Shown in pieces: positions 24,889 to 59,790 of a stretch of DNA of 64,000 nt. The position numbers were made by a program, and so were the translations under genes. The stretch spans positions 39,053 through 103,052 of the forward strand of contig DATIIB010000003.1 of the NCBI GenBank assembly GCA_035480055.1, given 5' to 3'. A model generated the notes under the pieces. That model was not told where the DNA came from, made no database searches, and saw nothing but the letters and a program-made list of their open reading frames with translations. This DNA is from Candidatus Saccharimonadales bacterium. GTDB taxonomy: Bacteria; Patescibacteriota; Saccharimonadia; Saccharimonadales; DASZAF01. Within the stretch, counting starts at the first letter, position 1, and each line of letters opens with the position of its first letter.

Positions 24889-26100
24889 GTGTTTATGGTT
24901 CATAAAACAGACATATTCCACGCTAAAATTCGAGCTTCCCTCAAGAGAGTAGCAGGGTATAGTGCCTTGGTTATTGCCGCATTAGCAATGATGTGTAGCT
25001 CGACGTTGCCGGTCTACGCCGATCAATACGATGATCAGATTAATGCGCTCAAGCAACAGCAGGCGCAGAGTCAAGCACAGGCCAACCAGCTTGGTGCCCA
25101 AGCAAATGATTTGCAAGGGCAGATTAATGTTCTTGAAAACCAGATTGCTTCGGTCCGCGCTCAGATCGCCGCAAACCAGCAGCGCTATAACGATTTATCA
25201 GGCCAGATTGACGTGGCCAAAAAGGAACTCGCTCATCAGCGCGAAGTCCTTGGTAAAAACATTAAGGCGATGTACATTGAAGGAAAAGTTTCGACCGTTG
25301 AGATGCTTGCCTCGAGTAAAAATATCAGCGAATATCTTGATAAACAGCAGTACCGAAACACCGTAAAAGATAAAATATCAGACACGATTGTTTCTATTAA
25401 AGATCTCGAGAAACAACTCGCCGATCAGCAAGCAGAAGTGGTCAAGCTGCTCGATACGCAAAAGACTTTGCAGGCCGATCTTGCTGCCAAGCAGTCGGAG
25501 GCTGACCAAAAGCTGGCGCAAACTAATCAGGCCAAGTCGCAATTCGACACGCAAGTGGCTGATTTGGCAGCACAAATCGGACAGCTCAAGAGCGCCCAGG
25601 CACAAATGTATGCCAACCTGTCGGCCGGCGGGAGCTCAATCGCTAGCAAAGGTGCGTATGGTTCATTGCAATGGCGCAACAAAACAGCGGGTGTCAACTG
25701 TGGTGGCGGGTATGACTCGCAGCTTTGTAGCGCGTATCCTGATTCGATCATTGATTCCTGGCAGCTCTATAACCGAGAATGTGTCTCGTATGCAGCGTGG
25801 GCTATGCAGTATCGCTTTGGCCACCATGTCTCTGGCTTCCATGGAGCAGGCAACGCCTACCAGTGGCCAGGCACGGTTCCTGCGAATGGCGATGGCTACA
25901 CCGATGAGACCCCAGCTTCTGGCTCAGTCGTCATTATTCCACCTTCGATTATCGGTGGTGTAGGTCACGCAGCAGTTGTGGAGCAGGTGTATGGCGATGG
26001 TTGGATTCGAGTAAGCCAATATAACTTCGACCCGTATGCATATAGCACCATGGACCTCAAGGTTGTCTCTGGGCTGGCGTTCGTGCACTTTACGCATTAG
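24889..26100 (+). CDS. Secreted coiled-coil + CHAP-domain peptidoglycan hydrolase (PcsB-like)
   Basis: Signal peptide (…LPVYA/DQ) followed by ~220 aa of Q/A/L-rich coiled coil. The C-terminal CHAP domain has a catalytic Cys (NRECVSYAAW) and His (GHAAVVE). Alternative ATG start at 24895. Confidence 0.8.
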   Translation: MFMVHKTDIFHAKIRASLKRVAGYSALVIAALAMMCSSTLPVYADQYDDQINALKQQQAQSQAQANQLGAQANDLQGQINVLENQIASVRAQIAANQQRYNDLSGQIDVAKKELAHQREVLGKNIKAMYIEGKVSTVEMLASSKNISEYLDKQQYRNTVKDKISDTIVSIKDLEKQLADQQAEVVKLLDTQKTLQADLAAKQSEADQKLAQTNQAKSQFDTQVADLAAQIGQLKSAQAQMYANLSAGGSSIASKGAYGSLQWRNKTAGVNCGGGYDSQLCSAYPDSIIDSWQLYNRECVSYAAWAMQYRFGHHVSGFHGAGNAYQWPGTVPANGDGYTDETPASGSVVIIPPSIIGGVGHAAVVEQVYGDGWIRVSQYNFDPYAYSTMDLKVVSGLAFVHFTH

Positions 26101-26428
26101 GAACTCCTGGGTTCGCCCTTCAATCCTCCTACGATCCTCCCTTCAGCCCACTCCACAACTCCCACCCGCGGACTGTCCTCCTTGTTGGTAGCAGCGATAT
26201 ATCTGTTGTTTGGAAATGGATAGTCTTAGTATTTTATGTCCGCTCTTCGAGCGGCACATCTAGCCACCACTAATTCTCAAGTTCAAGAATGAACGGGTGA
26301 CACCTGACGGGGCTGCCCCAAAATTGTTTTATGTATTCATAAAAAATTTAGGGGCGGATCAGGTGGCAGGACCCGTGGAGTATGCTGAAGGGTGGAGCGT
26401 GGGAGAGGAGGGGCGGATCAGGGGAGGT
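26101..26428. other. 328-nt structured non-coding region filling the convergent gap between the CHAP hydrolase and femX-like genes; candidate ncRNA or MITE-like element
   Basis: The pyrimidine-rich left arm (26133-26156) is 20/24 complementary to the purine-rich right arm (26375-26398). Contains the core hairpin, a small CCGCTC-TTC-GAGCGG hairpin and two copies of GGGGCGGATCAGG (26351-63, 26410-22). Confidence 0.6.
26291..26380 (+). repeat. Copy 1 of a ~90-nt long-hairpin repeat element
   Basis: 83/90 identical to the reverse complement of 57885-57974. Folds into a ~35-bp imperfect hairpin with an AT-rich apex (GTTTTATG-TATT-CATAAAA). Confidence 0.85.
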
Positions 26429-27427
26429 TTAATGCCGCAATCTAGTTTTAAGAGCTTGCGCCCATTTCCAAGGATGATACAGCGGCTGGAGTGGAATATC
26501 ATACGCGGGTACATACTCGATCACCTCGCCGCCAAAACGCAGCTTAAACTGCGTTACCCCTTGCAGGCCGGGGTAATTTTTGCTGCCAATTCCCAAAAAG
26601 TCGTAGCTCCGTACACCTTCGTCTTTGAGCTGACGCATTATTTCAACGTGAAGAAGATAAGGCGCACTGACTTTCCGAGCTGCCTCATTGCTTGCGCCGT
26701 AGTAATAAATAGCTTGATTATTGAAGACGGTGTCGATGGCCCAGGCGATAGGTGATGCGCCTTCAAAGGCGACAAAAAAGCGCACCGTTCCGTCCAAGGA
26801 TTTGAGCATTGATTGATAGGTGCTGGCCGGGTGGACGTAGAATCCATCGCGCGAGGCAGTCTCGCTGAGAATGGCGTAGTAAGGTGCAAAATCAGCTGCT
26901 GCTTCAAGAGCTGGCACTTCGCGTATGGTAATTCCTGATTTGGCAGCTTTACGCATTCCGCGGCGTGCTCCATAGTCCATTCGCTCCAGGATTGTCTCGA
27001 AGTCGGGCGTCAAATCCACCACGGTTGTTTTTTCGATAAGTGACTTAGAATATGCCGGAAGCCCTTTGGCAGGCGGTTTGGGAAAATGCGCCCGGATGAA
27101 TAATGGCCGCGCAGTGCTTGCTTCCGCAACAACATCACGCAGCGTTTTCGCCACGTCATCGACAATAGCTTGGGTTGGTTCGACCAGCCAGGTGGGACCT
27201 TGATTAAGCCAAATGTAGCTATATCCGCGCATTGTTAATTCAACAGCATTCAAGAGTGCAACTTCTTGTTCGTTTTGACGGATCAAAAAAGTACCAAGAG
27301 ACCGTCGCCCAGGAATCGTGGATTGAAACTCTCCCCAGAGAGGGGATTGCTCAATTGGAAAGCGCGTCTCGGGGTGAGAGTGAATAAGTTTGGTGTACAG
27401 CTCTGCACTAATTTTTTCAGCTCGCAT
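26429..27427 (-). CDS. FemABX-family peptidoglycan-bridge aminoacyltransferase (FemX-like)
   Basis: 332 aa. The C-terminal pattern YYYGASNEAARKVSAPYLLHVEIMRQLKDEGVRSYDFLGIG is typical of the FemAB/lipid II aminoacyltransferase family. An AAGGA SD lies upstream of ATG 27427. Confidence 0.75.
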   Translation of the reverse strand: MRAEKISAELYTKLIHSHPETRFPIEQSPLWGEFQSTIPGRRSLGTFLIRQNEQEVALLNAVELTMRGYSYIWLNQGPTWLVEPTQAIVDDVAKTLRDVVAEASTARPLFIRAHFPKPPAKGLPAYSKSLIEKTTVVDLTPDFETILERMDYGARRGMRKAAKSGITIREVPALEAAADFAPYYAILSETASRDGFYVHPASTYQSMLKSLDGTVRFFVAFEGASPIAWAIDTVFNNQAIYYYGASNEAARKVSAPYLLHVEIMRQLKDEGVRSYDFLGIGSKNYPGLQGVTQFKLRFGGEVIEYVPAYDIPLQPLYHPWKWAQALKTRLRH

Positions 27428-27463
27428 ACAGATTATCCTTACGGCTATCTTTTTGGGTATCAG

Positions 27464-27478
27464 CATGATAATATCATG
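27464..27478. promoter_or_regulatory. Perfect 7-1-7 palindrome CATGATA-A-TATCATG in the femX-like/ctpA divergent promoter region
   Basis: Reads as an extended -10-like TGATAATAT on the + strand and TGATATTAT on the - strand. Possible shared operator or overlapping divergent promoters. Confidence 0.4.
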
Positions 27479-27509
27479 AAAGTAACGACAATCTCTAGAA
27501 GGTGAGTAC

Positions 27510-28727
27510 ATGGGATATATGGCAAGTCAGCAAAAAATGGTGGCAAAGTTAAAAAATTGGGGCCGAAAATCGGTACCCTTTATAATTGTGGCAGTAATTG
27601 CTTTTGGCATGGGCGTCAAGCTAAGTGGCTTCGACCTTACCTCACTTGAAAGAAATAAAAATAGCAAAGCGCCAGCAGACCTTAACTACACGTCTGTCGA
27701 GCAGTTATACGACCGACTGCGCCAAAAGTATGATGGTAACCTCGACGCGGAAAAACTTATCGACGGCATGAAGAAAGGCTTGGTTGAAGCAACTGGCGAC
27801 CCATATACGACCTACTTTACGCCCAAAGAAAGCCAAGACTTCCAGGATTCGCTCGATGGGAAATTCTCTGGTATTGGTGCCGAGCTTGGCAAAAAGGACG
27901 GCCAGTTGGTGGTGGTTTCTCCTCTGGAAGGCTTCCCAGCTCAAAAAGCAGGCGTGAAGACTGGCGATATTATCTTGCAAGTAAATGGCGAAGATGCCAG
28001 CAAATGGAGCGTTGACCAAGCGGTGAGCAAAATCCGCGGTGATAAAGGCACGACAGTTAAAATTCAAGTGGCTCGCGACCAAAAGCCGCTCGAATTTACC
28101 ATCACCCGCGATGACATCACCATTCCAAGCGTGAAGTACGAAGTAACCAGCGACAACATTGGTTATATGCAAATCTCACGCTTTGCCGAAGACACCGGGG
28201 CATTAGCTCAAAAGGCTGCCGATGAATTCAAGAGCAAGAATGTCAAAGGCGTGGTGCTCGATCTTCGCGGTGATGGCGGTGGTTATCTCGACGCAGCAGT
28301 CTCAGTGTCAAGCTTGTGGCTAGACAACGGCCAGACGGTGGTTCAAGAACGCCAGGGCAACAAAGTTGTTGATACTCTGCAGGCAAAGGGCGGCAATGTG
28401 CTCAAGGGATTTCCAACGGTGGTATTGATTGATGGCGGCTCAGCCAGTGCCAGTGAGATTACTGCTGGTGCGCTCCAAGACACCGCCAATGCCAAACTGG
28501 TCGGCGTCAAAAGCTTTGGAAAGGGCAGCGTTCAAGAGTTGCAAAAACTCAACGACGGATCTGAACTCAAGGTGACGGTAGCTCGCTGGTACACACCAAA
28601 AGGTAAAAACATTGACAAAGAAGGTATCTCGCCTGATATTGAAGTCAAGATGAACGACGACGATGTGGCGGCAAATCGGGACCCGCAAAAAGACCGCTCA
28701 TTCTCTTTCATCAATACTAAGCAATAA
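27510..28727 (+). CDS. ctpA: Carboxy-terminal processing (S41) peptidase with PDZ domain
   Basis: N-terminal TM, PDZ domain (GIGAELG...GFPAQKAGVKTGDIIL) and an S41 core (DLRGDGGGYL, GSASASEI, SFGKGSVQ). Confidence 0.85.
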   Translation: MGYMASQQKMVAKLKNWGRKSVPFIIVAVIAFGMGVKLSGFDLTSLERNKNSKAPADLNYTSVEQLYDRLRQKYDGNLDAEKLIDGMKKGLVEATGDPYTTYFTPKESQDFQDSLDGKFSGIGAELGKKDGQLVVVSPLEGFPAQKAGVKTGDIILQVNGEDASKWSVDQAVSKIRGDKGTTVKIQVARDQKPLEFTITRDDITIPSVKYEVTSDNIGYMQISRFAEDTGALAQKAADEFKSKNVKGVVLDLRGDGGGYLDAAVSVSSLWLDNGQTVVQERQGNKVVDTLQAKGGNVLKGFPTVVLIDGGSASASEITAGALQDTANAKLVGVKSFGKGSVQELQKLNDGSELKVTVARWYTPKGKNIDKEGISPDIEVKMNDDDVAANRDPQKDRSFSFINTKQ

Positions 28728-43977: not shown

Positions 43978-44093
43978 CTCAGTCGCGCAACATGCTAGCG
44001 CCTTTCTTGAAAGTACGGCATACTACATAGAGCAAGAGCACACCACGTGTGACTCTTTCTTTTATGCTAAAACTAACAAGGAAATACAGACAC

Positions 44094-45071
44094 ATGGACC
44101 AAGACCAACAGCAGCAACAGCCCTCACTCCATCAACAAGAGACCGATATTTTTGCCTGGGCCGGCCATGTGGAAAGCGCCAGAGACGCCTTGGAAGTGGA
44201 TCTGTATTTGTTTAACAAAAAATACACCGTGTATAGTGCCCATGTTGCGCGCGAGTTAGAACTGCAGCTCAAGCAGCTCTTTCTGTTTGAAATGCTTAAT
44301 TACGTGTCCTCAGGACCTGATCAGGGCATGGTGGTGCGAACTTTTGAGGAAGCCGAAGGTGAAGAGCTGGTGATTCAGCGAACCCAGCTGGCAAATGTGG
44401 AAAACGCGACATATATCTTGCATCAGATTGAAGAACCGGACGAGGAAGTGCAGCTTTTCCGCGATGATGAACATGACTTCAAACGTATCAAAGGTATTGT
44501 GGCGCGTTTTTCGCACCCCAGTATGCCGCGACCGTTTTACGTGGTGAAGCTGGTGCAGCAATCGCAGGTGCTAAAGGGCAAAACGGCTTGGCTGCTGGAT
44601 GGCAACAGCTTTAAGCCATTTACCGCTGATGCCGGTTTTAAAGTTGCGCCAGATAATCAGGTGGTCATTGTGGCAGAGGATATCTTCGTCTTTAATCAAC
44701 GCCGATTTGAAACCCTTTTTGGCTACAATGCCAAGCAACAACTTATTGCCAAGCAAAAGGTGGCCCAGATCGAAAACCTCTACAAGCTGAGCTTTCCAGA
44801 AGGTATGGACCTTAATAGCCTGGTCAAAGACAAAAAAAGCACGATCAAAAAGTTGCAGAACCTTGAAGTTGGCCGCGTTAAGCAAGACGAGCTATTGGAT
44901 CACGCCGAAGAGATGGGCGTGGAGCTCATGACCGACGAAGGCGGAGCGATTATCATCATGGATGGCAAAGATCTGGATAAGTTTGTTAATTTGCTCAACG
45001 ATGATTATGTGGAGTCGGGCTTAACCGGCACTAAGTATGAGATTCGCGGCAAACGAGTGCTTGGCGAATAA
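44094..45071 (+). CDS. Hypothetical protein, possibly DUF4868/KwaB-like
   Basis: 325 aa with a Gln-rich N-terminus. Overall length and sequence style (…DIFVFNQRRFETLFGY…, C-terminal LLNDDYVESGLTGTKY) remind me of DUF4868 proteins. Unverified without an HMM search. AAGGAAA SD upstream of ATG 44094. Confidence 0.35.
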   Translation: MDQDQQQQQPSLHQQETDIFAWAGHVESARDALEVDLYLFNKKYTVYSAHVARELELQLKQLFLFEMLNYVSSGPDQGMVVRTFEEAEGEELVIQRTQLANVENATYILHQIEEPDEEVQLFRDDEHDFKRIKGIVARFSHPSMPRPFYVVKLVQQSQVLKGKTAWLLDGNSFKPFTADAGFKVAPDNQVVIVAEDIFVFNQRRFETLFGYNAKQQLIAKQKVAQIENLYKLSFPEGMDLNSLVKDKKSTIKKLQNLEVGRVKQDELLDHAEEMGVELMTDEGGAIIIMDGKDLDKFVNLLNDDYVESGLTGTKYEIRGKRVLGE

Positions 45072-55540: not shown

Positions 55541-55562
55541 TTATACACAGGCGTACAAGGAG

Positions 55563-55590
55563 CTCCCCAACAGGGGAGTTTTTATTTTTT
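55563..55590 (+). terminator. Strong intrinsic terminator after the nucleotidyltransferase gene, upstream of the dcw cluster
   Basis: Stem CTCCCC/GGGGAG with an AACA loop, followed by TTTTTATTTTTT. Confidence 0.8.
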
Positions 55591-55655: not shown

Positions 55656-55703
55656 GTGGGTAGGAGTGGGTAGTAGACTATGGCTAGTGGGTAAGCGTGG
55701 GTA
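55656..55703 (+). promoter_or_regulatory. Four GTGGGTA direct repeats: candidate MraZ operator
   Basis: GTGGGTA occurs at 55656, 55666, 55687 and 55697 (offsets 0, 10, 31, 41 nt), upstream of mraZ. This resembles the 10-nt-phased TGGGN repeats bound by E. coli MraZ. Confidence 0.6.
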
Positions 55704-55768
55704 GCCAGACAAAGGCTAGTCACAAAAATAAAAACCACTGCACTATAAAAACATCTAAGGTGACCCGA

Positions 55769-56128
55769 GTGACAGATTACTTTGAGCGCAGACTCGACGA
55801 TAAGCGGCGGCTGACAATTCCAGCCGAGCTTCGGGCAGAATTTGCACAAGGAGTGGTCATAACTCGTGGCTTCCGGAACTACCTTCACCTCTATCCAAAG
55901 CAGGTGTGGGACGAGCAAGTTGAACCACAACTCAAGGGGAGTATCCTCGACGAGAAAGTGGCGGACTTAAACGTACAGTTTCGAAGTGGCAAGGCCGATA
56001 CCGAGCTTGATGGCAAGCAGGGTCGTGTCTCGATCGAGCAGCATTTGCTGGATTACGCTGGTATCACCAAAGAAGTAGTCGCGGTTCGCGCCGGTGCCTA
56101 TTGGCGGATAATGCCAAAAAGCGTCTAA
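55769..56128 (+). CDS. mraZ: Transcriptional regulator MraZ (short form)
   Basis: Two DxxxR-type SpoVT/AbrB-like motifs (LDDKRRLTIP, LDGKQGRVSI). The GTG at 55769 aligns the first motif as in E. coli MraZ. The ORF-track start at 55697 lies in the operator repeats. Confidence 0.75.
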   Translation: MTDYFERRLDDKRRLTIPAELRAEFAQGVVITRGFRNYLHLYPKQVWDEQVEPQLKGSILDEKVADLNVQFRSGKADTELDGKQGRVSIEQHLLDYAGITKEVVAVRAGAYWRIMPKSV

Positions 56129-56424: not shown

Positions 56425-56449
56425 GACTACTAGATAGGTGACCTCGAGA

Positions 56450-57358
56450 ATGAAAAAAAATACACCACCACAACAACTCCACATGCCGGTGCTGCTTGAG
56501 CAGACGCTACTAGTACTTGGGCCCAAGAAAGGCGAGAGCTATCTCGACTTGACGGCTGGGTATGGTGGCCATGCAAAAGCGGTAATCGACACCACAGGAG
56601 TGCCAAGCAAAGCGGTCTTAGTTGATCGTGATGAGAATGCCATTGCCGAGTTAGGCTCGTTCCAAGCGCAAGGGGCTACTTTGTTGCACACTGATTTTTA
56701 TCAGGCAGCACAGCAACTTGCCAAGAATGGCCAACGCTTTGATATGGTATTGCTTGATTTGGGGGTGTCGTCACCACAGCTAGACCGAGCTGAGCGTGGA
56801 TTCAGTTTTGCCCATGGCGGTCCTTTGGATATGCGCATGGACAATCGGGAACCACGAACTGCTGCCGATCTGGTAAATACCCTGGGTGAGACTGAGCTTG
56901 CCGAGTTAATTTGGAAGTATGGTGAAGAGCCAAAATCGCGGGCCATTGCTAAGGCAATCGTCCACAATCGACCCTTCACAACTACCGATCAACTCGCCAC
57001 AACCGTCGCCACCGCCACTCGTTGGGGAAGAAGCAAAGTTCATCCCGCAACGCGCACCTTTCAAGCATTACGCATCGCTGTCAACCGCGAGCTGGAACTG
57101 CTGGAATCAACACTCTCGTTATTGCCAAGTCTTTTGACTCCTGGCGGCAGAGTGGCGATTATCAGTTTTCATAGCCTCGAAGACCGGATCGTCAAACATT
57201 TTCTAAAAGATTTGACCGAAGCCGGCTACGAAGCAGAGTTCGCTCCACTGACCAAAAAACCAATCAGCGGTGCCACCGAAGACGTTCACAATCCGCGAGC
57301 CCGTAGCGCCAAGTTACGAGCCGCTGTGAAAATAAAAAACCAAAAAGAAAGGAGTTAG
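56450..57358 (+). CDS. rsmH: 16S rRNA (cytosine1402-N4)-methyltransferase RsmH
   Basis: HMPVLL.E, DLTAGYGGH, DLGVSS.QLD and FHSLEDR motifs. Alternative GTG start at 56438. Confidence 0.9.
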   Translation: MKKNTPPQQLHMPVLLEQTLLVLGPKKGESYLDLTAGYGGHAKAVIDTTGVPSKAVLVDRDENAIAELGSFQAQGATLLHTDFYQAAQQLAKNGQRFDMVLLDLGVSSPQLDRAERGFSFAHGGPLDMRMDNREPRTAADLVNTLGETELAELIWKYGEEPKSRAIAKAIVHNRPFTTTDQLATTVATATRWGRSKVHPATRTFQALRIAVNRELELLESTLSLLPSLLTPGGRVAIISFHSLEDRIVKHFLKDLTEAGYEAEFAPLTKKPISGATEDVHNPRARSAKLRAAVKIKNQKERS

Positions 57359-57436: not shown

Positions 57437-57447
57437 GCAAGCTTTTC

Positions 57448-57486
57448 GAGACTCACCAGCCACAAAAACAAAGGCTGGTGAGTCTC
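57448..57486 (+). other. Perfect 14-bp hairpin between rsmH and ftsL (not terminator-like)
   Basis: GAGACTCACCAGCC (57448-61), an 11-nt A/C loop, then GGCTGGTGAGTCTC (57473-86). Followed by an A-rich tract rather than a T-tract. Confidence 0.7.
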
Positions 57487-57524: not shown

Positions 57525-57860
57525 ATGTCTCAGTATGCTGCTGCAACCATGGAATCTCGCATGTGGCGACGCAACCAAAATACGGTGCGACATCAGATCG
57601 AAAAAGGTGGCCTCGGACCTGTAGCCCACGTAGTGTTAATTGCATTAATGCTGTGTGTGTTGGGCCTGATTTATCTTACGCAAATCACCAAAACAAGTAC
57701 GTACGGCTACGAGATTCAAAAATTACAATCGCAAAAAACTGCCCTTGCAGACCAAAAGCAGGTCTTGCAGGTTGAAGCCGCCAGATTGCAGGCTCTCGAC
57801 CAAGTGAAGAAGGGGAGTGTCGGCATGGTGCAGCCTGCGAATACGGATTACGTGCAGTAG
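57525..57860 (+). CDS. ftsL: Cell division protein FtsL-like (septum formation initiator)
   Basis: 111 aa with a short cytoplasmic tail, one TM and an extracytoplasmic leucine-zipper-like coiled coil. Sits at the canonical dcw position. Confidence 0.7.
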   Translation: MSQYAAATMESRMWRRNQNTVRHQIEKGGLGPVAHVVLIALMLCVLGLIYLTQITKTSTYGYEIQKLQSQKTALADQKQVLQVEAARLQALDQVKKGSVGMVQPANTDYVQ

Positions 57861-57884
57861 ATGTTAAAGATGATCTCCCTCAAC

Positions 57885-57974
57885 CTCCGCGGGTCCTGTC
57901 GCCTGATCCGCCCCTAAATTTTTTATGAATACATAAAACAATTTTGGGGCAGCCCCGTCAGGCACCACCCGCTC
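57885..57974 (-). repeat. Copy 2 of the ~90-nt long-hairpin repeat element (opposite orientation), between ftsL and ftsI
   Basis: The reverse complement aligns base-for-base with 26291-26380. Differences are concentrated in one stem segment and preserve pairing. Confidence 0.85.
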
Positions 57975-58041
57975 GTACCATGTGGAAGACGAGATGTTCG
58001 TAAGCGAAGTCTTGAGGGGAAAATGATAAAATGAAACATAA

Positions 58042-59790
58042 ATGAACCAACAAAGAACAACCATACACCGAGCCCATATGCTGTGGGGGTTTTTGGCGAT
58101 TTGCGGGTTGTTATTTGGAGTTCGTTTATTTTACTTGCAAGTTTTGCGCCATGATTATTACGAGACGCAAGCGGTTGCTGAACATCAAAAGAAGTTTGTG
58201 CTCCCCGCCAAGCGTGGGCTGATTTACGCTCATGACCGAACCGGCATTACACCGCTCGTCCTCAACCAACCGGTGTTTCTCCTGTACGCTGATCCGCGCT
58301 ACGTCCGCGACCCCAAGGCAACCGCTGAAACGATTGCTCATTACGTGGGCGGCGATATTAGTGAGTATCAAAAATTGCTCTCCCAGAGTGATCACTCATA
58401 TGTGGTGCTGGCCAAAAAGATCACCAAGAATCAAGCTGATGGCATTACCAAAGCGCAACTATACGGAGTGGGGCTCACTCAATCTGAAGAGCGGGTCTAT
58501 CCCGAAGGCGAGCTTGGCGCGCAGATGCTGGGCTTTGTCAACGACGAAGGGGTAGGGCAGTATGGCCTGGAAGGCGCGTTGGATGATCGTTTGCACGGCA
58601 CAGATGGTTTGTTAAAGGCGGTGACCGATGTGCGCGGTATTCCGCTTTCGATTACCAATCAGAATGTCATGAAGCCAGCCCAAGATGGGGCTAACGTGGT
58701 TCTCTCGGTTGATCGCAATGTGCAAGGCTACGCCGAGCAGGCCCTAAAGGCCGGACTGGATAAAGTGCATGCGACCAAAGGCAGCGCCTTGGTGATGGAC
58801 CCTCAAACCGGCGAAGTCATCGCCATGGCAAACTACCCAACGTACGATCCGTCTAAATATACCGATGTCAAAGATTACTCAGTCTTCCAGAACAAGACGG
58901 TCAGCGATCCGTACGAGGCCGGTTCGGACATTAAAGTACTGACCATGTCGGCTGGGATAAACGAAAACGTGGTGCACAAAACCACGCAATTCGACAATCG
59001 CAATCAAGTGCAAGTGGGCGACGCCACGATCCACAATGTAGAGCAACACACTGGGCCAACCACTATGCAACAGGTACTGGACCTGTCGCTTAACACTGGA
59101 GTGGTGTTTGTGCTGCAGCAACTTGGCGGCGGGAGCATCAACTACCAGGCGCGGCAGAAATTCTTCCATTACTTTACGGATAAGTTTGGCTTTGGTAAAA
59201 AGACCGGCATTGAGCAGGCCGGCGAAGCTCCGGGCTACATCTTTTCGCCCGACGATGAACAGGGCAATAATGTGCGATACGCCAACATGACGTTTGGACA
59301 GGGGATGACCGAAAGCATGATTCAGGTCGCTTCGGCTTTCAGTAGTGTCATTAATGGCGGCACCTACTACCAGCCGCATCTGGTGAGCGGGACCTATAAT
59401 GCTGACACAGAGCAGGTTACCAAGGAACTCCCCAAGGTTGAGCGAAGTGGCGTGGTTACTGCAGCAACTTCGGCTGAGATTCGCGACATGATTATTACCG
59501 CGCTGCGTGACACCCCAGCCCTGAAGGCTGCGAACCGCGCTGGCTATAACATTGGAGGTAAGACGGGCACCTCGCAGATTATCGATCCAAAGACGGGCCA
59601 GTATTCGGATAACAATGCGATCGGGACCTATGTCGGTTTCGGTGGTAATGAGACCCCTAAATATGTGATAATGGTACGTGTTGATGATTCTCAAGCCGGC
59701 GGCTATGCTGGTTCGGCCGCGGCCGCGCCTATCTTCGCCGATATCTCCAACTGGTTGCTTGATTACTATAAGATTCCGCCCGTAAAATAA
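58042..59790 (+). CDS. ftsI: Penicillin-binding protein 2B/FtsI-type transpeptidase
   Basis: N-terminal TM, PBP dimerisation domain and transpeptidase motifs (SxxK-type AGSDIKV, SLN, KTGTS). Confidence 0.9.
   Translation: MNQQRTTIHRAHMLWGFLAICGLLFGVRLFYLQVLRHDYYETQAVAEHQKKFVLPAKRGLIYAHDRTGITPLVLNQPVFLLYADPRYVRDPKATAETIAHYVGGDISEYQKLLSQSDHSYVVLAKKITKNQADGITKAQLYGVGLTQSEERVYPEGELGAQMLGFVNDEGVGQYGLEGALDDRLHGTDGLLKAVTDVRGIPLSITNQNVMKPAQDGANVVLSVDRNVQGYAEQALKAGLDKVHATKGSALVMDPQTGEVIAMANYPTYDPSKYTDVKDYSVFQNKTVSDPYEAGSDIKVLTMSAGINENVVHKTTQFDNRNQVQVGDATIHNVEQHTGPTTMQQVLDLSLNTGVVFVLQQLGGGSINYQARQKFFHYFTDKFGFGKKTGIEQAGEAPGYIFSPDDEQGNNVRYANMTFGQGMTESMIQVASAFSSVINGGTYYQPHLVSGTYNADTEQVTKELPKVERSGVVTAATSAEIRDMIITALRDTPALKAANRAGYNIGGKTGTSQIIDPKTGQYSDNNAIGTYVGFGGNETPKYVIMVRVDDSQAGGYAGSAAAAPIFADISNWLLDYYKIPPVK

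What the first reader, a model, noticed from the sequence alone, without database searches (positions are those of the whole stretch)
57861..58041. The second copy of the structured element is inserted inside the dcw operon, between ftsL and ftsI
ftsL and ftsI are usually adjacent or overlapping. Here a 181-nt spacer holds the hairpin repeat (57885-57974, antisense relative to copy 1). It is bracketed by TCCCTCAA (57876-83) and TTGAGGGG (58012-19), which can pair over 8 bp. On the dcw mRNA this would form a very stable structure directly upstream of ftsI, whose ATG at 58042 has no visible SD. It could act as a processing or stability site, a translational regulator of ftsI, or a partial terminator that uncouples mraZ-rsmH-ftsL from ftsI-mraY-ftsW-murG. 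The other copy follows the FtsEX-associated hydrolase gene, so a link to envelope or division gene expression is possible but unproven.
Basis: partly seen in the sequence, partly recalled or inferred. Interest (0 to 1): 0.6.

Follow-up and report, generated by a model that had tools for sequence, protein, structure and literature searches.

The report
Dispersed hairpin repeat inserted in dcw operon
The hairpin between ftsL and ftsI is real, but it is one copy of a previously undescribed family of about 90-base palindromic repeats scattered through Saccharibacteria genomes next to unrelated genes, so it looks like a REP/MITE-type insertion and not a dedicated cell-division regulator.

Summary
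A 90-nt imperfect hairpin lies at 57885-57976 in a 181-nt ftsL-ftsI spacer. An inverted copy, 92% identical, lies at 26289-26380.

The window is a Saccharibacteria MAG. Relatives with 58-66% FtsI identity have only 19-20 nt between ftsL and ftsI, so the spacer is a lineage-specific insertion.

The hairpin belongs to a dispersed family. Seven more members turned up in three other Saccharibacteria assemblies. They sit beside ClpP, Kup, MarR, ValRS/FemAB, GT2/signal peptidase and FemAB/CHAP genes, in both orientations. One of those sites is empty in a close relative.

Stems covary strongly (15 compensated pairs; 0 of 500 shuffles reach this), while bulges and loops are invariant. Wobble pairs are one-sided: 18 G·U cells on one strand against 1 on the other. 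In the dcw operon the favoured strand is antisense to the mRNA.

There is no Rfam match, no U-tract terminator and no promoter consensus. The 8-bp "bracket" is no better than chance.

Best reading: a REPIN/MITE-like palindromic repeat carried as a passenger hairpin in the dcw transcript. An effect on ftsI expression is possible but untested. No transposase partner was found in the sequence available.

The parts
57861..58041 (+). 181-nt ftsL-ftsI spacer; derived, because more distant relatives have 19-20 nt here
57885..57976 (-). Copy 2 of the ~90-nt hairpin repeat. The strand with G·U pairs ('R' strand: GGGUGG..CGGGGCUGCCCC..AGGGGCGGA..CAGGACCC) is the minus strand, antisense to the dcw operon. 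The mRNA carries the complementary 'F' form.
26289..26380 (+). Copy 1 of the repeat, R strand on the plus strand, in the 328-nt gap between the convergent CHAP-hydrolase and FemAB genes
26409..26422 (+). Solo 14-nt fragment AGGGGCGGATCAGG, an exact duplicate of part of the 3' arm of copy 1. Read as a remnant of another copy.
26126..26405 (.). Outer inverted repeat (26126-26156 / 26375-26405, 31 nt, 84% complementary) that encloses copy 1. This is the most structured intergenic region in the window (-152 kcal/mol).
57876..58019 (+). It pairs in the MFE fold but is not beyond chance.
57525..57860 (+). FtsL-like ORF (111 aa), assigned by position only
58042..59790 (+). ftsI (PBP dimerisation + transpeptidase domains); start supported by N-terminal conservation
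24889..26100 (+). CHAP-domain hydrolase downstream of ftsE/ftsX; left neighbour of copy 1
26429..27511 (-). FemAB-family transferase; right neighbour of copy 1

Best explanation
The element is one copy of a dispersed, non-coding, ~90-nt imperfect-palindrome repeat family of Saccharibacteria. It is most like a REPIN/REP or a small MITE. Shown: it occurs in several copies per genome, in intergenic DNA, in both orientations and next to unrelated genes. Orthologous sites can be empty or filled. Its helices are kept by compensatory change while a 5-nt bulge (CGGGG), an internal loop (RCAGG) and the block AGGGGCGGA stay invariant. Wobble pairs sit on one strand only. Inferred: the family spreads, or is maintained, through a single-stranded intermediate in which that one strand folds and is recognised by a protein. 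A Y1/HUH-type transposase, as for REPINs, is the obvious candidate, but none was seen. One copy landed in the short ftsL-ftsI junction in the ancestor of this lineage. Because the operon must still express ftsI-mraY-ftsW-murG, the hairpin is most likely transcribed through and carried as a passenger stem-loop (about -39 kcal/mol) in the dcw mRNA. Any effect there would be a by-product of the kind described for REP, ERIC and Correia elements: a 3'-exonuclease barrier, an RNase III substrate, or loss of ftsL-ftsI translational coupling. It would not be a purpose-built division switch.
For: Repeat and fold. Host identity. Family members found by pattern and by covariance model: L076, L078, L079 (two copies), L080 and L081 from metagenome Ga0164242; L090 from Ga0496124; L087 from Ga0395523. 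Neighbouring genes are unrelated in function. Covariation: 92.9-94.2% of cells paired, 15 pairs changed on both sides, 0/500 shuffles reach the observed values, and slid-partner controls drop to 35-55% paired. Strand asymmetry: 18 G·U against 1 A·C cells; G·A to A·G swap opposite each other at alignment A6 columns 12/82; the R strand is more stable in all six elements folded. Empty sites: ftsL-ftsI is 19-20 nt in L082, L083 and L084. The FemAB-ValRS gap is 115 nt without the element in L091, against 411 nt in L080 and 624 nt in L090, where the hairpin lies in opposite orientations. In the orthologous FemAB-CHAP gap, the L087 member has a different position and the opposite orientation from window copy 1. 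There are partial copies next to copy 1 and a chimeric copy in L076. No Rfam family matches. REPINs are described as ~89-bp hairpin-forming doublets whose spacer varies but always keeps a hairpin (PMC3337134).
Against: No transposase or recombinase was found among the roughly 40 window ORFs scanned, and the rest of the genome could not be reached. Copy number looks low: 2 copies in 64 kb, and 6 on five contigs totalling about 360 kb. No consistent target-site duplication flanks the copies. The short palindrome GGGGCWGCCCC is on one arm only, so the element is not a clean REP doublet. Palindromes can keep complementarity by arm-to-arm templated repair without selection. That process would not give one-sided G·U or G·A pairs, however. 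The two closest relatives also carry long hairpins at the same junction. This could mean the junction is under selection for a structure and is not merely a tolerant insertion site.
Confidence: 0.6

Rival explanations
1. Dedicated cis-acting RNA element of the dcw mRNA. The hairpin would be selected at this junction as a processing or stability site, a partial terminator, or a translational regulator that sets FtsI and downstream expression relative to MraZ-RsmH-FtsL.
For: All three members of the closest clade carry a long hairpin in this spacer: window 181 nt, L071 169 nt, L074 268 nt. The L071 hairpin resembles the family in block order and lies in the same orientation. The sense-strand fold is very stable in the window (-39 kcal/mol, z -5.9). 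In the MFE fold the spacer ends pair, bringing the ftsL stop next to the ftsI start.
Against: The same element sits beside unrelated genes and in both orientations. G·U pairs favour the antisense strand. In L071 the sense strand is the weaker fold: RNA -29 against -40 kcal/mol, and as ssDNA z -1.5. There is no U-tract. More distant relatives manage with 19-20 nt. L074, the nearest relative of L071 (81% FtsI identity), has a different hairpin sequence.
Confidence: 0.15
2. Host-beneficial generic 3'-end hairpin. The family would be kept because it ends or stabilises transcripts (a U-less terminator or exonuclease block), and would spread by duplication or recombination and not by transposition.
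For: Six of eleven placements put the R strand in the sense direction downstream of a gene. Two begin 5-10 nt after a stop codon (Kup in L081, ClpP in L076). Several lie between convergent genes. Other convergent gaps in relatives hold unrelated long palindromes.
Against: Other copies lie upstream of genes or antisense inside an operon (window copy 2, L078, L080, L090). There is no U-tract after either strand. The invariant bulge and loop sequences are not needed for a simple stability hairpin.
Confidence: 0.15
3. A strand-specific small or antisense RNA gene transcribed from the R strand. In the dcw operon this would be an antisense RNA across the ftsL-ftsI junction.
For: There is one-sided G·U and G·A pairing and there are invariant unpaired nucleotides on the R strand.
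Against: No promoter consensus lies on either strand of the spacer. The flanks are not conserved between copies. Two copies start 5-10 nt after an upstream stop codon, which leaves no room for a promoter. No Rfam family matches.
Confidence: 0.05
4. A folded single-strand recombination site of the integron attC type or similar.
For: The design is conceptually similar: structure is conserved while stems vary, there are extrahelical bases, and there is strand selectivity.
Against: The conserved ends are CGGGT/ACCCG, not RYYYAAC/GTTRRRY. There is no cassette array. No integrase was found among the ORFs scanned. Copies are 30 kb apart and in opposite orientations.
Confidence: 0.03

Closest known systems
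REPINs / REP sequences mobilised by RAYT transposases (Bertels & Rainey; PMC3337134)
   Same: [quoted passage not shown] Conserved blocks are separated by segments that differ between copies but always keep pairing. There are more complex nested or paired arrangements (L079 doublet, copy-1 region). Related copies are found in several lineages of one phylum.
   Different: No RAYT or other transposase was seen. Copy number appears low. The short palindrome GGGGCWGCCCC occurs on one arm only. The host is a reduced-genome Saccharibacterium (CPR); my literature searches found no report of such elements there.
Correia (CREE/NEMIS) elements of Neisseria and ERIC elements of enterobacteria
   Same: These are palindromic repeats of 100-150 bp that are inserted within operons and co-transcribed, folding into mRNA hairpins. 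CREE can bind RNase III and be cleaved or protected by it, altering expression of neighbouring genes (PMC2649163). This is the best model for what copy 2 might do to the dcw mRNA.
   Different: CREE has defined terminal inverted repeats, a TA target duplication, IHF sites and promoter-forming ends. None of these was found here. No sequence similarity was tested or expected.
E. coli REP elements as local 3'UTR regulators
   Same: These are hairpins placed just after stop codons or between genes of an operon, with context-dependent effects on mRNA decay and termination (bioRxiv 10.64898/2026.03.23.713779; established REP literature, from my own knowledge).
   Different: E. coli REPs are 35-40 nt. 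This element is about 90 nt, with five helical segments and a conserved 5-nt bulge.
Intrinsic (Rho-independent) terminator or attenuator
   Same: A stable GC-rich stem-loop located between genes.
   Different: No U-tract follows either strand. The apical third is AT-rich. The genes downstream are essential and have no promoter consensus of their own.

Membership tests
REPIN/REP (RAYT-associated) | Dispersed extragenic copies within one genome, in both orientations | tested here: met
   There are 2 copies plus one fragment in the 64-kb window, and 6 copies on 5 contigs of metagenome Ga0164242. All are intergenic.
REPIN/REP (RAYT-associated) | Hairpin-forming unit with conserved REP blocks and a variable spacer that keeps pairing | tested here: met
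   92.9-94.2% of cells are paired, 15 pairs show changes on both sides, and 0/500 shuffles reach the observed values. Helix 2 varies at all 7 pairs, while the blocks CGGGGCUGCCCC, AGGGGCGGA and CAGGACCC are invariant or nearly so.
REPIN/REP (RAYT-associated) | Two copies of one short imperfect palindrome (REP) in inverted orientation | tested here: inconclusive
   The arms are related as an inverted pair, but GGGGCWGCCCC is present on one arm only. The other arm has GGGGCGGA.
REPIN/REP (RAYT-associated) | Single-copy RAYT (Y1/HUH transposase) gene in the genome, usually flanked by REPs | not testable with these tools
   Only the window and flanks of 10 kb or less were reachable. About 40 window ORFs scanned with Pfam show no transposase.
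REPIN/REP (RAYT-associated) | Tens to hundreds of copies per genome | not testable with these tools
   No complete genome of a carrier could be scanned. The observed density is about 1 per 30-60 kb.
MITE | Presence/absence polymorphism at orthologous sites | tested here: met
   The ftsL-ftsI spacer is 19-20 nt in L082-L084 against 181 nt here. The FemAB-ValRS gap is 115 nt and empty in L091, against 411 and 624 nt and filled in L080 and L090.
MITE | Target-site duplication flanking terminal inverted repeats | tested here: not met
   No consistent direct repeat is seen at the ends of the nine copies. In L079, L080 and L090 the hairpin lies inside a larger unit bounded by ACACCGCTNNNGTCGTT inverted repeats. 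The window copies lack these.
Intrinsic terminator | GC-rich stem followed by a U-tract | tested here: not met
   No terminator-like site was reported in 57861-58041. The flanks of all copies lack T runs.
Any Rfam 15 RNA family | Covariance-model score at or above the gathering threshold | tested here: not met
   There are 0 hits at gathering threshold in the whole window. A permissive scan of the spacer gives only microRNA-precursor hairpin noise, E>=0.3.
Integron attC site | R''/R' core sites RYYYAAC ... GTTRRRY at the ends of the folded site | tested here: not met
   The conserved ends are (R)CGGGT ... ACCCG(Y).

The most novel reading that the evidence does not exclude
The hairpin is the folded substrate of an undescribed, strand-specific REPIN-like system in Saccharibacteria/CPR, with a protein partner that reads the invariant CGGGG bulge and RCAGG loop. 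Its repeated occupation of the ftsL-ftsI junction in one clade (window, probably L071, and a different palindrome in L074) would reflect co-option to uncouple or tune FtsL and FtsI synthesis in these tiny episymbiotic cells.
Probability: 0.1. Interest if true: 0.6.

Novelty: new member of a known kind. Interest (0 to 1): 0.35.

Why it matters
Saccharibacteria have about 1-Mb streamlined genomes with short intergenic regions, so a self-propagating structured repeat is not expected there, and I found no report of one. The family gives a ready-made covariance model for a census of CPR genomes. It is also a marker for strain-level presence/absence typing. It explains why assemblies of these genomes break at certain intergenic sites. 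An insertion of a -39 kcal/mol hairpin between two essential, normally near-contiguous division genes is a natural experiment on how much structure the dcw transcript tolerates. If the element does alter the ftsI:ftsL ratio, that would be an example of a repeat being co-opted in a minimal genome.

Tried and rejected
1. The genome-contig scan with GATCCGCCCC N15-45 GGGGCAGCCCC gave 68 hits, all chance matches in GC-rich genomes and none in Saccharibacteria. That scan was wasted, and the source species' representative was not recovered.
2. An exact look-up of the FtsL-like protein found nothing on record.
3. I considered a twister-type ribozyme, because of words such as CCGCCCCTAAA and GGGTCC, and other known RNAs. 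Rfam gave nothing.
4. A viral-contig scan gave 2 chance hits with no model match.
5. Promoter and terminator consensus scans found nothing in the spacer.
6. Extended homology of the flanks between copy 1 and copy 2 is not significant beyond about 8 nt on each side.
7. A search for more copies or fragments in the window found only the 14-nt fragment at 26409-26422.
8. The L071 spacer hairpin scores 19-25 bits against the models. A 501-kb control of unrelated DNA reaches 23.6 bits, so homology of L071 is only 'possible'. It is supported by position, orientation and strand asymmetry, not by score.
9. Replication-strand bias: the two window copies are in opposite orientations although GC skew does not change sign across the window. 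There is therefore no support for a strict lagging-strand rule.
10. Pfam scans for a transposase in the window found none.

Full report
WHAT IS THERE. The window is part of a Saccharibacteria (Saccharimonadales) MAG, GCA_964479845.1, contig CAYZNG010000003.1. The FtsI protein has a 100% match there, and named homologues are all Saccharibacteria. Pfam confirms mraZ (55697-56128), rsmH (56438-57358), ftsI (58042-59790), mraY, ftsW and murG. The 111-aa ORF at 57525-57860 has no FtsL/DivIC hit even at E<=10, so it is 'ftsL' by position only. The ftsI start at 58042 is supported by conservation of the first 12 residues in relatives, although the public annotation starts later. The spacer is therefore 181 nt.

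THE REPEAT. A whole-window repeat search finds one long inverted pair, 26291-26380 against 57885-57974: 90 nt, 92% complementary. Both copies fold into a long imperfect hairpin on either strand. The core gives RNA -39.3 and -41.8 kcal/mol, with z from -4.8 to -5.9. As ssDNA the z-scores are -5.6 to -6.8. It is 7 Watson-Crick pairs plus one G·U, and 17% of shuffled flanks do as well. Copy 1 lies between the convergent CHAP hydrolase (after ftsE/ftsX) and a FemAB gene. That 328-nt gap is the most structured in the window (-152 kcal/mol). It contains an outer 31-nt inverted repeat and an extra exact 14-nt fragment of the element.

NOT A KNOWN RNA, TERMINATOR OR PROMOTER. Rfam gives no hit at gathering thresholds. 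A permissive scan gives only generic microRNA-hairpin noise. There are no tRNAs or tmRNA. The consensus scan finds no terminator (no T run follows either strand) and no sigma-70-like promoter in the spacer.

THE SPACER IS AN INSERTION. In syntenic dcw clusters of relatives with 65, 66 and 58% FtsI identity (L082, L083, L084), the ftsL-ftsI gap is 20, 19 and 20 nt. The mraZ-rsmH (~310 nt) and rsmH-ftsL (~165-195 nt) gaps keep their length in every relative. Only the three closest genomes have a long spacer: window 181 nt, L071 169 nt, L074 268 nt. The last ~20 nt before the ATG (TGATARARTRGAA...) are alike in the three. The extra DNA therefore sits between the ftsL stop and this segment.

A FAMILY, NOT A PAIR. 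A metagenome scan with a loop-tolerant pattern found five related copies on five contigs of one JGI metagenome, Ga0164242. That organism is also a Saccharibacterium, because ValRS homologues at 79-82% identity are named Saccharibacteria/Patescibacteria. A covariance model built from these recovered all of them. It also found a divergent second copy next to the first in L079 (59 bits). It found a copy in L090, from a 94%-ValRS relative (94 bits). It found a diverged member in the FemAB-CHAP gap of L087, at 29.5 bits and E 1.5e-4 before it was used for training. No further copy exists in the window or in 277 kb of Saccharibacteria loci. Neighbouring genes are a GT2 glycosyltransferase and signal peptidase (convergent), ValRS and FemAB (divergent), Kup, ClpP and MarR. 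The orientation relative to the neighbours is mixed.

EMPTY AND FILLED SITES. The FemAB-ValRS gap is 115 nt and lacks the element in L091 (86% ValRS). It is 411 nt in L080 and 624 nt in L090 (94% ValRS). In these two the hairpin sits in a unit bounded by ACACCGCTNNNGTCGTT inverted repeats, and the hairpin lies in opposite orientations in the two genomes. In the orthologous FemAB-CHAP gap, window copy 1 and the L087 member differ in both position and orientation. Other relatives carry unrelated long palindromes there. L076 is a chimera of two copy types. Contigs L070, L078 and L081 end inside or next to the element. All of this is the behaviour of a mobile or recombining repeat.

STRUCTURE IS SELECTED, ON ONE STRAND. 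On the model-based alignments, 92.9-94.2% of cells form standard pairs, and 15 of 30 pairs show changes on both sides. No shuffle out of 500 reaches the observed values, and sliding the partners drops pairing to 35-55%. These alignments were fitted to the model. However, helices 1-3 are ungapped, and the same pairs appear in the MAFFT/RNAalifold analysis. Helix 2 changes at all seven pairs, whereas the bulge CGGGG, the loop RCAGG and the blocks GGGGCUGCCCC and AGGGGCGGA are invariant or nearly so. Non-Watson-Crick cells are one-sided. There are 18 G·U cells at 8 positions on the strand I call R, against a single A·C cell, which would be G·U on the other strand. Two opposite loop positions swap G·A to A·G. 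The R strand is the more stable strand in all six elements folded. The counts involve perhaps 6-7 independent events, so this is good evidence but not overwhelming. In the dcw operon the R strand is the minus strand, so the mRNA carries the less favoured complement.

THE SISTER LINEAGES. The L071 spacer hairpin matches the models over their full length, on the same strand as window copy 2 (19.1 and 24.6 bits, E 0.03-0.01). It shows the same order of blocks, and its R strand folds much better than its sense strand (ssDNA z -4.0 against -1.5). A control of 501 kb of unrelated DNA reaches 23.6 bits, so I rate homology as possible, about even odds. L074 is closer to L071 (81% FtsI identity) than either is to the window (73%). 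It has a different ~200-nt hairpin built from GTCATCCTGA-type repeats. One possibility is that one ancestral insertion was later diverged, homogenised or replaced. The other is that the junction is a repeatedly used, tolerant landing site. I cannot separate these.

MECHANISM. Shown: dispersal, empty/filled sites, covariation, strand asymmetry, and the absence of terminator or promoter signals. Inferred: spread through a folded single strand recognised by a protein, as for REPINs and IS200/IS605-type elements. REPINs are ~89-bp hairpins with a variable but always-pairing spacer (PMC3337134). Also inferred: read-through transcription of copy 2 as a passenger hairpin. Possible consequences, by analogy with Correia elements (RNase III binding or cleavage, PMC2649163) and E. 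coli REPs (context-dependent 3'UTR effects, bioRxiv 10.64898/2026.03.23.713779), are altered stability of the upstream segment or loss of ftsL-ftsI coupling. None of this is testable here.

LIMITS. No transposase was found, but only ~40 ORFs of one 64-kb window were examined. Copy number per genome is unknown. There are no transcript data. The evidence that envelope genes are over-represented near copies is biased, because the FemAB neighbours seen at three loci include one locus that I examined on purpose.

VERDICT. The 'division-specific regulator' reading is not supported. The element is a new family within the known class of bacterial interspersed palindromic repeats, seen here in a phylum where I found no previous report.

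Noticed in passing
window 57443-57484: There is a perfect 14-bp hairpin (GAGACTCACCAGCC ... GGCTGGTGAGTCTC) in the rsmH-ftsL gap, followed by an A-rich run on the plus strand. The minus strand was flagged as terminator-like by the consensus scan.
   Followed up: no
window 58042-58078: The public annotation of FtsI (P0001, 570 aa) starts 12 codons downstream of the ATG at 58042. The first 12 residues are conserved in relatives, so the longer ORF is the better call.
   Followed up: partly
L074 9733-10000: The ftsL-ftsI spacer of a 73% relative is a ~200-nt hairpin (-98 kcal/mol) built from GTCATCCTGA/GTCATGCTGAG-type repeats. This is a different palindrome family at the same junction.
   Followed up: partly
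L086 6003-6162: The FemAB-CHAP intergenic region of a relative is a near-perfect 160-nt palindrome (-107 kcal/mol), unrelated in sequence to the element studied. L085 has another palindrome. Convergent gaps in this clade seem to collect long palindromes.
   Followed up: no
L079 5768-6112; L080 2060-2270; L090 1190-1620: The hairpin is embedded in a larger unit bounded by ACACCGCTNNNGTCGTT inverted repeats, with a small hairpin and a CACGTAG module. L079 holds two hairpins tail to tail. L080 and L090 hold the hairpin in opposite orientations at the same site.
   Followed up: partly
L078 1-123 and L081 8878-9000; L070 1-44: The start of L078 and the end of L081 are exact reverse complements over 123 nt, and L070 begins at the apex of copy 2. 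Assemblies break at this element.
   Followed up: no
window 44049-45071: This ORF has a KwaB-like (Kiwa anti-phage) domain. A KwaB-like gene also lies near the dcw cluster in L084.
   Followed up: no
window 26429-27511; L087 5001-6011; L080 2290-3291; L090 140-1126: Family members lie next to FemAB-family genes at three loci in different genomes. One of these was inspected on purpose, so the sample is biased. It might be chance or a preferred neighbourhood.
   Followed up: no
window 55558-55583: A canonical terminator-like hairpin with a T-tract lies just upstream of mraZ. It suggests that the dcw unit starts after it.
   Followed up: no
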